The position numbers were made by a program, and so were the translations under genes. Of a stretch of DNA of 48,298 nt, positions 1 through 48,298 are shown piece after piece. How positions within the stretch are numbered: position 1 is the first letter of the stretch; each line of letters begins with the position of its first letter. The notes below the pieces were generated by a model. It had not been told where the DNA came from, did not search any database, and saw only the letters and a list, made by a program, of their open reading frames with translations. Source of the DNA: a virus; the IMG/VR virus record IMGVR_UViG_3300033565_000024; one strand, given 5' to 3'.

Positions 1-127
1 TGAGCTAAAATTTTCACGCGAAAACTTAGAACTTGAACCAGAAGAATTAGCCGAACAAGCACTCCTCCCATATAGTGTAACCGGCTTCGTTATCGGTGGA
101 AGTAACGAACACCTTGGAGTAACCCTC
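1..127. repeat. Terminal overlap identical to 48172..48298 (circular assembly overlap or terminal redundancy)
   Basis: Base-for-base identity read directly: tgagctaaaattttcacgcg...ggagtaaccctc at both ends. Confidence 0.95.
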
Positions 128-451
128 ATAGGTTCAAAATCTGTTGATTGCGGTACCCTGAATCTGATCAGCCCTTTCACTAAGTACGAAGGCGAATACA
201 AATACGGGATGGAACTATCCATTGCAATCGAAGCCTGTGTGTATGAGGTTGAACAATATCTGTTTGAGGGCAAATGTGCGGTGAAGCAAATGGAACTACC
301 GTTTGATGATGCTATCAATGAGGCCGATTCTGCAACAGTTACATTCATTGATAATGAAGGGAATGAAAGCGAGCCTGTTGACCTTAAAACAGCTAAGAAA
401 AGGCTTAGCAAGAAGCTTGATGGGGTGATGTCATCAGATGTCCCCGTTTAG
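2..451 (+). CDS. Hypothetical protein, 3' part of the wrap-around ORF that starts at 47963 (219 aa when joined)
   Basis: The frame of 47963..48298 continues without a stop through the overlap to the stop at 449-451. The listed ORF 209..451 is its C-terminal part. Confidence 0.6.
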   Translation, partial: ELKFSRENLELEPEELAEQALLPYSVTGFVIGGSNEHLGVTLIGSKSVDCGTLNLISPFTKYEGEYKYGMELSIAIEACVYEVEQYLFEGKCAVKQMELPFDDAINEADSATVTFIDNEGNESEPVDLKTAKKRLSKKLDGVMSSDVPV

Positions 452-494
452 GCAGTACAAGTGGAAGAATGACAGCCGGGAAAGACCGGCACCC

Positions 495-600
495 GACCGG
501 GTAGCTCAGTAGGTAAGAGCATTTTGGTGTATAGGTTGATCTTTCGATTAAACATACTTTGAATAACAAATGTACGCAGGTTCGAATCCTGTCCCGGCCA
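495..600 (+). tRNA. tRNA gene with a 33-nt insertion in the anticodon arm (candidate anticodon GUA, GUU or GAU depending on junction)
   Basis: Canonical acceptor (gaccggg/cccggcc, one A.C mismatch), U8A9, D arm gctc-agtaggtaa-gagc, T arm gcagg-ttcgaat-cctgt, discriminator A. Total 106 nt versus 73 expected. Anticodon stem ttttg(522-526)/caaat(567-571) encloses 40 nt instead of 7. Confidence 0.6.
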
Positions 601-628
601 CAAATTAAACAAAAACCAAACTAACAAT

Positions 629-39761: not shown

Positions 39762-39833
39762 TGCGAGGTGGAGCAGAGGTAGCTCGTTGGACTCATAATC
39801 CGAAGGTCGTAGGTTCGAATCCTGCCTTCGCTA
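39762..39833 (+). tRNA. tRNA(CAT), initiator-like (fMet-type) scaffold
   Basis: Anticodon loop ctCATaa (CAT 39794-39796). 1:72 mismatch (U.U). A11:U24 in the D stem. Runs TGGAGCAG..GGTAGCTCGT and CTCATAA.CCGAAGGTCGT.GGTTCGAATCC closely resemble E. coli tRNA-fMet. Anticodon stem has GGA/UCC instead of GGG/CCC. Confidence 0.85.
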
Positions 39834-39954
39834 CAAATTTTTAAATAGAGGATCGGCACCATTGGTGTAACCCGATCAGGACAGCGGGGCAATTCCTACC
39901 CAGCAAAGAGTGAGGGATTATCCAGGACTCACAAGCAGACGAAAGAGAACCCGG

Positions 39955-47962: not shown

Positions 47963-48298
47963 ATGCAATACATAATCAAAAAAGCAAAAATCAAAGACAT
48001 GACCCTTACGGTCGAAATGGAAGAAATCATTTATCCTGAAAACGCAAGTCCCATCACAAATGATGTGACAAAGAAATCAGATCAGCTGATTCATGAAGAT
48101 CTGAGAGCTGCATTTGATAAGCTTATACCCCACCTGGTGCATATCTGCGAACAGAAAGAGGCTGGAGTGGCTGAGCTAAAATTTTCACGCGAAAACTTAG
48201 AACTTGAACCAGAAGAATTAGCCGAACAAGCACTCCTCCCATATAGTGTAACCGGCTTCGTTATCGGTGGAAGTAACGAACACCTTGGAGTAACCCTC
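47963..48298 (+). CDS. Hypothetical protein, 5' part of the wrap-around ORF (continues at 2..451)
   Basis: ATG 47963 (MQYIIKKAKIKDMTL...), open to the window end. Same frame as 2..451 through the 127-bp overlap. Confidence 0.6.
   Translation, partial: MQYIIKKAKIKDMTLTVEMEEIIYPENASPITNDVTKKSDQLIHEDLRAAFDKLIPHLVHICEQKEAGVAELKFSRENLELEPEELAEQALLPYSVTGFVIGGSNEHLGVTL
48172..48298. repeat. Terminal overlap identical to 1..127
   Basis: Direct comparison of both ends. Confidence 0.95.

What the first reader, a model, noticed from the sequence alone, without database searches (positions are those of the whole stretch)
495..600. Phage tRNA gene interrupted by a 33-nt insertion in the anticodon arm
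The acceptor, D and T arms are textbook, but the gene is 106 nt long. The anticodon stem (522-526/567-571) encloses 40 nt instead of a 7-nt loop. The extra RNA folds on itself. gtat (529-532) pairs with atac (554-557), so a potential GUA anticodon pairs with the insert, as in archaeal/eukaryal pre-tRNAs. ttgatc (536-541) pairs with gattaa (546-551) around a tttc loop. Removing 33 nt at slightly different junctions gives the loops GU-GUA-AA (Tyr), GU-GUU-AA (Asn) or GU-GAU-AA (Ile). The insert is far too short for a group I intron. Short protein-spliced introns are not expected in Bacteroidota or their phages. It could be a new kind of intron, a tRNA-like regulatory or decoy RNA, or a tRNA inactivated by insertion.
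Basis: partly seen in the sequence, partly recalled or inferred. Interest (0 to 1): 0.62.

Follow-up and report, generated by a model that had tools for sequence, protein, structure and literature searches.

The report
Phage tRNA look-alike, oversized anticodon arm
This phage gene has the outer shape of a lysine tRNA but no usable anticodon loop; it sits behind a small RNA hairpin found in phages of many bacterial phyla, so it is more likely a tRNA-shaped RNA with another job than a tRNA split by an intron.

Summary
Window 495-600 is a 106-nt tRNA-like gene (Rfam tRNA model, 45 bits) with about 32-33 extra bases between the D and T arms. The intron reading is not supported. The insert folds no better than shuffled sequence, there is no bulge-helix-bulge, and any "restored" anticodon arm would be weak and atypical. 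No insert-free copy was found.

Two new facts change the picture:
- The gene begins 4 nt after a 22-nt hairpin, UGACAG-stem-GAAAGA-stem-CA (470-491). This hairpin is present in hundreds of phage and prophage contigs across bacterial phyla. Its stem covaries, and it is absent from Rfam.
- About 30% of these hairpins are followed at once by an acceptor plus T-arm module, and more than half of those modules are not normal tRNAs.

The window's scaffold matches phage tRNA-Lys(UUU) genes. The same scaffold also occurs with no anticodon arm (61 nt) and with a different large insert (115 nt).

Best reading (about 0.5): a non-decoding, unspliced tRNA-shaped RNA, probably trimmed by RNase P. Rivals are a decaying pseudogene (0.25), a new kind of intron (0.1) and a processing signal (0.1).

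This scan had already noted the hairpin and similar tRNA-like genes on other DNA.

The parts
470..491 (+). Leader hairpin: UGACAG, then a CCGG/CCGG stem (G474-C490 can extend it to 5 bp) with a GAAAGA loop, then CA. It ends 3 nt before the tRNA-like gene.
   Evidence: Sequence. It is the only copy in the window. The 17-nt core is found in at least 119 viral, 120 metagenome and 120 genome contigs. The flanks are conserved. The stem covaries: 60 of 82 hits to TGACAGN4GAAAGAN4CA have fully complementary arms, in about 18 different arm pairs. There is no Rfam match.
495..600 (+). tRNA-like gene, 106 nt, on a Lys(UUU)-type scaffold. Discriminator is A600. No CCA is encoded.
   Evidence: Rfam RF00005 at 45.1 bits. 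The alignment to phage tRNA-Lys(UUU) L550 and to E. coli lysT shows positions 1-15, the D stem, the T arm and the 3' acceptor strand are shared.
495..520 (+). 5' acceptor strand (495-501), U8-A9 (502-503), and the D arm: stem 504-507/517-520 with loop AGUAGGUAA, which holds G18 G19.
   Evidence: cmscan alignment and sequence.
521..575 (+). Central domain of 55 nt, where a class I tRNA has about 22. It is A+U-rich and weakly structured, and has no 7-nt anticodon loop on a 5-bp stem. The two possible foldings use the same CAAA 567-570 and cannot both form. In one, closing stem 523-526/567-570 encloses helix 529-532/554-557. In the other, the hairpin 558-561/567-570 forms instead.
   Evidence: Fold results (z = -0.14). 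ARAGORN results.
536..551 (+). Inner hairpin UUGAUC-UUUC-GAUUAA.
   Evidence: Sequence. It is present in both the minimum-energy and the centroid folds.
576..599 (+). T arm (GCAGG-UUCGAAU-CCUGU, 576-592) and 3' acceptor strand (593-599).
   Evidence: cmscan alignment. The T arm, with the next 14 nt and trailer ACAAAUU, is 81% identical to that of the window's tRNA-Met at 39808-39839 (repeat D8).
601..628 (+). A-rich 28-nt spacer between the tRNA-like gene and the start codon of the C5 DNA methylase gene (629-2350).
2..451 (+). 3' part of the upstream 219-aa ORF. It starts at 47963 and runs across the junction of the circular contig. Its stop codon lies 18 nt before the hairpin.
   Evidence: Relatives are listed.

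Best explanation
Window 495-600 is a tRNA-shaped RNA gene built on a lysine-tRNA scaffold. Its anticodon arm has been replaced by a 55-nt, A+U-rich, weakly folded domain. It cannot read codons and is not spliced.

It is part of a widespread phage cassette. A short conserved hairpin (UGACAG, stem, GAAAGA loop, stem, CA; 470-491) lies a few nucleotides upstream of an acceptor plus T-arm module.

Inferred mechanism: the unit is transcribed with the early genes. The intact acceptor stem and the D/T-loop 'elbow' make it a substrate for RNase P at G495 and for 3' trimming and CCA addition after A600. This releases a stable tRNA-like RNA and leaves the hairpin at the 3' end of the upstream transcript.

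Shown here: the anatomy, the cassette, the covarying hairpin, the scaffold series and the lack of a decoding loop. Inferred only: transcription, RNase P processing and any function as a decoy or regulator.
For: 1. The tRNA scaffold is intact while the centre is not. The gene scores 45 bits on RF00005, and U8, G18 G19 and the UUCGAAU T-loop are kept. Uniform decay would not spare exactly the parts that processing enzymes recognise.

2. The same scaffold, GACCGGGTAGCTCAG...CCCGGYCA, occurs in four other forms:
- a normal tRNA-Lys(UUU) (L550);
- a Lys gene with A33 (L552);
- a 61-nt form with no anticodon arm, behind the same hairpin, in three contigs (L153, L549, L551; RF00005 at 48.6 bits);
- a 115-nt form with an unrelated insert (L553).

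3. Of 338 unique hairpins with the CCGG stem, 99 are followed within 12 nt by an acceptor plus T-arm module. Controls gave 11 (anchor shifted) and 2 (shuffled). Only 42 of the 99 are tRNAs that ARAGORN calls. The other 57 range from 59 to 268 nt. RF00005 reports several other over-long ones: L178, L220, L491, L412, L206 and L499.

4. The two syntenic relatives that keep the cassette also carry non-standard tRNA-likes. L093 has an 8-nt anticodon loop and L090 is an odd CAU-loop RNA.

5. The features expected of an intron are missing.
Against: - No close homologue of this particular insert was found, so there is no evidence of selection on the 55-nt domain.
- That domain folds no better than shuffles and is A+U-rich, as a decaying or junk insertion would be.
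- The acceptor stem has an A2-C71 mismatch.
- No function could be assigned. No antisense target stands out in the phage genome: the best match is 11 nt, as expected by chance.
- Many hairpins are not followed by tRNA-like modules at all, so the hairpin and the tRNA-like gene may be functionally independent.
Confidence: 0.5

Rival explanations
1. Decaying pseudogene. A phage tRNA-Lys-type gene was inactivated by an insertion or scrambling of its anticodon arm. It persists without function, and the hairpin is the only selected element at the locus.
For: - The insert is A+U-rich and folds no better than shuffles.
- The acceptor stem has an A-C mismatch.
- The three syntenic cassettes (window, L090, L093) all differ and all look defective, while the hairpin is identical in them.
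- Other relatives of the upstream gene lack the cassette altogether.
Against: - The damage is confined to the centre. The acceptor, D and T arms and the elbow nucleotides still give 45 bits.
- Non-canonical modules make up more than half (57 of 99) of hairpin-led modules, and some form families of several members. That is hard to explain as decay alone.
- The arm-less 61-nt form keeps a perfect scaffold.
Confidence: 0.25
2. True intron of an undescribed kind. About 29-33 nt are cut out and the ends joined by host or phage enzymes. This would restore a working tRNA: Tyr, Asn or Ile, or a CUUUGAA loop (anticodon UUG) if 528-556 were removed.
For: - Lak megaphages of Prevotella carry conserved 'enigmatic' tRNA introns, including one in tRNA-Tyr(GTA) (PMC6784885).
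- A 4-bp helix joins a possible GUA to the insert.
- Removing 528-556 would leave a loop with C32, U33 and A37 (reading of the alignment).
Against: - There is no bulge-helix-bulge: the loops flanking the 4-bp helix are 2x9 and 3x2.
- 33 nt is far too short for a group I intron, and Rfam finds no intron family.
- The restored stem would have U-U plus three A-U pairs, with either G32 or a 2-nt bulge.
- No insert-free allele was found in IMG/VR for this scaffold.
- None of the 14 ORFs scanned matched an RNA ligase or splicing endonuclease family.
- The Lak Tyr intron read here is 93 nt with a T-arm of its own, unlike this insert.
- The same scaffold exists with no anticodon arm at all.
Confidence: 0.1
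3. Processing signal ('tRNA punctuation'). The tRNA-like fold exists only to attract RNase P and 3' trimming enzymes. They would separate the upstream recombination-gene message, which would end in the hairpin, from the methylase message, which would start about 28 nt before its AUG. The released tRNA-like RNA would be a by-product.
For: - The cassette sits between two co-oriented genes, 18 nt after a stop codon and 28 nt before a start codon.
- L153, L090 and L093 show similar spacing of 20-30 nt to the next ATG.
- The centre of the molecule is free to vary or vanish.
Against: - Across 98 modules, the distance to the next ORF is no different from random anchor positions: 24% against 21% fall in the 15-45 nt class.
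- This idea does not explain why the hairpin's flanks and loop are invariant across phyla.
Confidence: 0.1

Closest known systems
'Enigmatic' tRNA introns of Lak megaphages (Devoto et al. 2019, Nat Microbiol; PMC6784885)
   Same: These are over-long tRNA genes in phages of Bacteroidota (Prevotella). They are missed by bacterial-mode tRNA finders, have extra sequence in the anticodon region, and include a Tyr(GTA) case.
   Different: - The Lak Tyr insert read here is 93 nt and holds its own T-arm-like element.
- It sits after position 37 of an otherwise good anticodon stem.
- Lak inserts are identical across cohorts, and an intron-free allele exists for the Thr gene.
- The insert here is 29-33 nt with no T-arm, sits on a poor stem, and has no insert-free allele or conserved copy.
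Canonical tRNA-Lys(UUU) genes of phages and bacteria (L550; E. coli lysT)
   Same: The first 15 nt, the D stem, the T arm and the 3' acceptor strand match phage tRNA-Lys(UUU) L550. The T arm matches E. coli lysT.
   Different: There is no 5-bp stem with a 7-nt CUUUUAA loop. 55 nt lie between the D and T arms. Similarity of 556-572 to the lysT anticodon arm is not significant (p about 0.1).
Archaeal and eukaryal protein-spliced pre-tRNA introns (bulge-helix-bulge)
   Same: A short insert lies in the anticodon arm, and a 4-bp helix joins a candidate anticodon to the insert.
   Different: The two 3-nt bulges are absent. The host is bacterial. None of the ORFs scanned matched a splicing endonuclease or RNA ligase family.
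boxB hairpins of lambda and P22 nut sites
   Same: The leader hairpin is a short phage RNA hairpin with a purine-rich GAAAGA loop, a covarying stem and invariant loop letters.
   Different: It has a six-base loop and invariant UGACAG and CA flanks, and no boxA. It occurs in phages of many phyla with no shared N-like protein in the neighbourhood. It often lies directly 5' of tRNA-like modules.
RNase P-processed non-tRNA phage RNAs, such as the c4 antisense RNA of P1/P7 (from my own knowledge; not tested here)
   Same: A phage small RNA whose ends would be set by a tRNA-like acceptor module rather than by a promoter and terminator.
   Different: No Rfam C4 match was found in the window or in the related loci scanned. 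No antisense target was found.

Membership tests
tRNA (Rfam RF00005), as a structural family | Score above the gathering threshold over the full model, with acceptor, D and T arms | tested here: met
   45.1 bits against a threshold of 29, covering model positions 1-71.
Decoding (functional) tRNA | A 5-bp anticodon stem closing a 7-nt loop with U33 and a purine at position 37 | tested here: not met
   43 nt lie where the model has 11. ARAGORN default mode makes no call. No register gives such a loop without removing sequence.
Decoding (functional) tRNA | Aminoacylation and use on the ribosome | not testable with these tools
   This needs charging assays or ribosome-associated RNA data.
Bulge-helix-bulge (protein-spliced) tRNA intron | Two 3-nt bulges on opposite strands separated by a 4-bp helix, each bulge holding a splice site | tested here: not met
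   The 4-bp helix 529-532/554-557 is flanked by a 2x9 internal loop (527-528 / 558-566) and a 3x2 internal loop (533-535 / 552-553).
Bulge-helix-bulge (protein-spliced) tRNA intron | Splicing endonuclease and RNA ligase available | tested here: inconclusive
   Pfam scans of 14 ORFs (the upstream ORF fragment and 13 ORFs of 170 aa or more outside the structural block) found no match to either kind of enzyme. Smaller ORFs and the structural ORFs were not scanned, and the host genome is unknown.
Group I intron in a tRNA anticodon loop | A ribozyme core (P3-P8) of roughly 200 nt or more | tested here: not met
   Only about 33 extra nt are present. No Rfam intron family matches, even at E up to 10.
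Lak-type 'enigmatic' phage tRNA intron | An insert conserved between phages, with insert-free alleles of the same tRNA | tested here: not met
   No homologue of the insert and no insert-free allele were found. Scans for the same scaffold gave only L550, L552, L153-type and L553.
Hairpin-led phage tRNA-like cassette (defined here; not a published family) | UGACAG-stem-GAAAGA-stem-CA hairpin ending 2-12 nt before an acceptor plus T-arm module on the same strand | tested here: met
   The hairpin lies at 470-491 and the module starts at 495. It is one of 99 such modules among 338 hairpins.

The most novel reading that the evidence does not exclude
The hairpin plus tRNA-scaffold unit is a general phage device, present across bacterial phyla. 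It would make non-decoding tRNA-shaped RNAs whose centre is a swappable working part, such as a decoy or regulator aimed at host tRNA-directed defences or enzymes. The invariant UGACAG/GAAAGA hairpin would be bound by a universal host factor, for example the RNase P holoenzyme or RNA polymerase. The window's gene would be a Lys-scaffold member of this system.
Probability: 0.2. Interest if true: 0.8.

Novelty: new variant of a known kind. Interest (0 to 1): 0.55.

Why it matters
Phage tRNA genes are usually read as aids to codon usage or as replacements for tRNAs cut by host defences. This case suggests that many phages keep only the outer shell of a tRNA, the parts that processing enzymes recognise, and vary or delete the decoding arm.

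It also shows that these genes share a 22-nt leader hairpin found in phages of Pseudomonadota, Bacteroidota, Clostridia, Spirochaetes and other phyla. That hairpin is absent from Rfam, and sequence searches of the paper library did not find it.

If the RNAs are expressed, they define an unstudied class of phage small RNAs. The hairpin would then be a handle for finding them, since standard tRNA finders skip most of them. For genome annotation, such genes should not be called tRNA-Tyr, tRNA-Asn or tRNA-Ile 'with intron'.

Tried and rejected
- **ARAGORN with intron search.** It gave only a poor Glu(UUC) model. Rejected.
- **Related loci via the downstream methylase.** 80 loci were fetched and none carries the cassette; the methylase is a shuffled module.
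- **Related loci via the upstream ORF.** IMG/VR gave none. The protein search gave 12 relatives, and only L090 and L093 keep the cassette.
- **Megablast of 20 kb against GenBank phages.** No match.
- **HDV-like ribozyme idea for the hairpin** (P1 pairing of UGACAG with an upstream CUGUCA). There is no enrichment of that sequence upstream. Rejected.
- **Sigma-70 promoter idea** (TGACA as the -35 box). The transcription start would fall inside the tRNA (offsets). Rejected.
- **Mimic of the RNase P RNA P4 / CR-I / CR-V region.** The CCGG version of the hairpin resembles E. coli rnpB GACAGAACCCGG and GGAAAGUCCGG. However, the stem covaries freely, so the likeness lies mostly in the stem and is probably chance. 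Kept only as a weak idea.
- **A shared neighbouring protein as hairpin partner.** No ORF family occurs in more than 14 of 240 loci.
- **Fixed distance from the module to the next ORF.** Not different from control.
- **Flanking-ORF strand test.** Uninformative because of spurious ORFs in GC-rich DNA.
- **Antisense target within the phage.** None beyond chance (the first attempt, timed out).
- **Tandem duplication of the anticodon arm.** Tandem Repeats Finder found nothing. The Lys-arm likeness of 556-572 has p about 0.1.
- **Covariation in a 123-131-nt Bacteroidales tRNA-like family.** The six sequences are too similar for RNAalifold to show any.
- **Literature search by sequence and by keywords.** Nothing relevant.
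- **Blastn of the gene against E. coli genomes.** No match.

Full report
**Setting.** The window is a circular phage contig: bases 1-127 repeat at 48172-48298. No whole genome is held for it, and it has no near relative among GenBank phages. The finding lies in the early region. Upstream is a 219-aa ORF of unknown function that runs across the contig junction and stops at 451. Downstream is a C5 DNA methylase gene that starts at 629. Earlier notes of this scan describe the contig as a temperate phage of a Bacteroidota-type host.

**Check of the observation.** Rfam's tRNA model matches 495-600 end to end at 45.1 bits (threshold 29). It places 43 nt where the model has 11. Three points need correcting:
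- The enclosing stem has four standard pairs, three of them A-U, plus a U-U.
- The acceptor stem has an A2-C71 mismatch.
- The insert does not fold better than chance. Region 521-575 gives -6.1 kcal/mol and z = -0.14. The whole gene gives z = -0.69.

ARAGORN misses the gene in default mode. With intron search it offers only a poor Glu(UUC) model.

**Is it an intron?**
- Thirty-three bases cannot hold a group I core, and no Rfam family other than tRNA matches 380-640 even at E up to 10.
- The archaeal and eukaryal signal is two 3-nt bulges around a 4-bp helix. Here the 4-bp helix 529-532/554-557 is flanked by a 2x9 and a 3x2 internal loop.
- Bacterial tRNA-Tyr has a long variable arm (textbook knowledge), and this gene has a 4-5-nt variable loop.
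- An alternative removal of 528-556 would give a loop CUUUGAA, but with a 2-nt bulge in the stem (read from the alignment).
- Pfam scans of 14 ORFs found no match to an RNA ligase or splicing endonuclease family. These were the upstream ORF fragment and 13 ORFs of 170 aa or more outside the structural block.
- Published short 'enigmatic' introns do exist in tRNAs of Prevotella megaphages. The Tyr(GTA) example is 93 nt, contains a T-arm, and is conserved between cohorts. An intron-free allele is known for the Thr gene (PMC6784885).
- Nothing comparable was found here. Two scans of IMG/VR for this scaffold with any spacer returned no insert-free or insert-bearing homologue of the window's gene.

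**The leader hairpin.** Syntenic relatives of the upstream ORF share with the window a perfectly conserved stretch just before the tRNA-like gene: TGACAGCCGGGAAAGACCGGCA (470-491).
The genome hits include Yersinia, Pseudomonas, Serratia, Prevotella, Sphingobacterium, Clostridia, Treponema, Planctomycetes, Omnitrophota and Patescibacteria.
- *Cultured phages.* It also occurs in mEp390, Cronobacter phage ESP2949-1 and Pseudomonas phage Medea1, mostly in unannotated spacers.
- *Conserved flanks.* Among 211 unique copies, the bases outside the searched core are conserved: T at -3 in 183, G at -2 in 202, C at +17 in 198 and A at +18 in 158.
- *Covarying stem.* A scan with the stem left free (TGACAGN4GAAAGAN4CA) gave 82 new hits. 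Sixty of them have four complementary pairs, against about 2% expected by chance. About 18 different arm pairs occur, such as CCCG/CGGG, CTTG/CAAG, CTCG/CGAG and GCCG/CGGC.

So this is a folded single-strand hairpin, most simply read as RNA, with a free stem sequence and an invariant loop and flanks. Its orientation tracks the tRNA that follows: 56 same-strand against 3 opposite-strand ARAGORN calls. It is not in Rfam, and the sequence searches of the paper library did not find it. No protein family is shared by more than 14 of 240 hairpin loci. Its partner is therefore unlikely to be a neighbouring phage gene.

**What follows the hairpin.** Of 338 unique CCGG-type hairpins, 99 are followed within 12 nt by a 7-bp acceptor stem joined to a T arm. 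Controls gave 11 when the anchor was shifted by 60 nt and 2 after shuffling. ARAGORN calls only 42 of the 99. These are ordinary tRNAs such as Leu, Pro, Gln, Trp, Ser and Met, plus six that ARAGORN could not assign to an amino acid. The other 57 range from 59 to 268 nt. They have missing, shortened or greatly enlarged centres, and several form recurrent families. RF00005 itself reports further over-long examples behind the hairpin: L178 (93 nt), L220 (95 nt), L491 (108 nt), L412 (103 nt), L206 (130 nt) and L499 (123 nt). The remaining hairpins are followed by long stem-loops, terminators or ribosome-binding sites.

**The scaffold series.** The window's first 15 bases, D stem, T arm and 3' acceptor strand match bona fide phage tRNA-Lys(UUU) genes. 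Those are L550, and L552 with A33. The T arm also matches E. coli lysT. The same scaffold, behind the same hairpin, occurs as a 61-nt RNA with no anticodon arm at all (L153, L549, L551). It still scores 48.6 bits on RF00005. It also occurs as a 115-nt RNA with an unrelated GC-rich insert (L553). At the window's own locus, the two relatives that keep the cassette carry other non-standard forms. L093 has an 8-nt loop that ARAGORN reads as a 4-base anticodon tcat. L090 is an odd CAU-loop RNA that neither tool calls.

**Interpretation.** The parts that survive are the parts that RNase P, 3' trimming enzymes and the CCA-adding enzyme read: acceptor stem, D-loop G18 G19 and T loop. This is general knowledge of tRNA processing and was not tested here. 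The decoding arm is variable. I therefore read 495-600 as a non-decoding tRNA-shaped RNA made from a Lys scaffold. It would be cut from the early transcript at G495, just after the hairpin, and would not be spliced (confidence about 0.5).

What it does is unknown. No antisense target stands out in the phage. Because the centre is A+U-rich and barely folded, a decaying pseudogene remains a serious rival (0.25). A pure processing-signal role is possible (0.1), but a fixed distance to the next gene is not a general feature. A new kind of intron keeps about 0.1.

**Relation to earlier notes of this scan.** After I had found the hairpin independently, a look-up showed that it had been noted before on other DNA. 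Earlier notes describe three copies in a Clostridia phage RNA, six copies before capsid genes, and an array of tRNA-like genes each preceded by it. They also describe other over-long phage tRNA-like genes. Those are unchecked AI notes. The counts, controls and covariation given above were made here.

**Limits.** My module detector is a simple rule set (7-bp acceptor stem with at most one mismatch, 5-bp T stem, T-loop pattern). Processing by RNase P is inferred, not shown.

Noticed in passing
window 470-491; also loci L096-L454 and L465-L548: A 22-nt hairpin, UGACAG-stem-GAAAGA-stem-CA, occurs in hundreds of phage and prophage contigs from many bacterial phyla. Its loop and flanks are invariant and its stem covaries. 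It is absent from Rfam 15, and sequence searches of the paper library did not find it. Its partner and function are unknown.
   Followed up: yes
L135, L261, L341, L349, L378, L388 (sequences listed): A family of 123-131-nt RNAs from Bacteroidales follows the hairpin. They start CCCCGGAAAGGGCAGG and end with a T arm and acceptor stem. A long-range helix seems to covary (GCAGAC/GTCTGC, GCGGCC/GGCCGC, GGCGG/CCGCC), but RNAalifold on six close sequences did not capture it. Only L135 was scanned with Rfam, and it gave no match.
   Followed up: partly
L170, L174, L180, L184, L194, L266, L223: A family of 87-108-nt hairpin-led RNAs has acceptor GCTGCAT/GTGCAGT, an unusual T loop UGCAAGR and, in most members, an encoded ACCA. 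In the four loci scanned with Rfam (L170, L174, L180, L184), a D12-methyl RNA (RF02950) lies on the same locus, about 250-600 nt from the hairpin.
   Followed up: no
L455 2500-2620 (phage mEp390); L457 1480-1664 (E. coli prophage): In the lambdoid phage mEp390, the hairpin lies downstream of the repressor gene and a small ORF, and is followed by a roughly 75-nt long stem-loop. In an E. coli prophage, a degenerate hairpin and the same stem-loop lie directly in front of an annotated tRNA-Arg(UCU).
   Followed up: partly
L093 3715-3789: The syntenic tRNA in a related phage has an 8-nt anticodon loop. ARAGORN reads it as a 4-base anticodon tcat. Its T stem is poor, and it did not appear among the RF00005 matches at the gathering score.
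   Followed up: partly
L552 2672-2904: A phage tRNA cluster holds a Lys(UUU) gene with A at position 33 and two neighbouring tRNAs that ARAGORN reads with 4-base anticodons (aatg).
   Followed up: no
window 575-606 and 39808-39839: The T arm, 3' acceptor strand and trailer ACAAATT of the tRNA-like gene are 81% identical over 32 nt to those of the phage's tRNA-Met(CAU) next to the integrase gene (repeat D8). This could be a shared 3' processing context or chance.
   Followed up: no
L459 890-1110; L463 750-915: Two relatives that lack the tRNA-like cassette share a conserved non-coding stretch of about 150 nt at the same position (AATGCCGTGGAT...GGAGTTCAAAG). It may be another small RNA.
   Followed up: no
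L328 (143-nt module): A hairpin-led tRNA-like gene keeps an intact anticodon stem-loop (GCGGC-UUGUUAA-GCCGC, anticodon GUU). That stem-loop is lifted onto a long extra stalk between the D and T arms.
   Followed up: no
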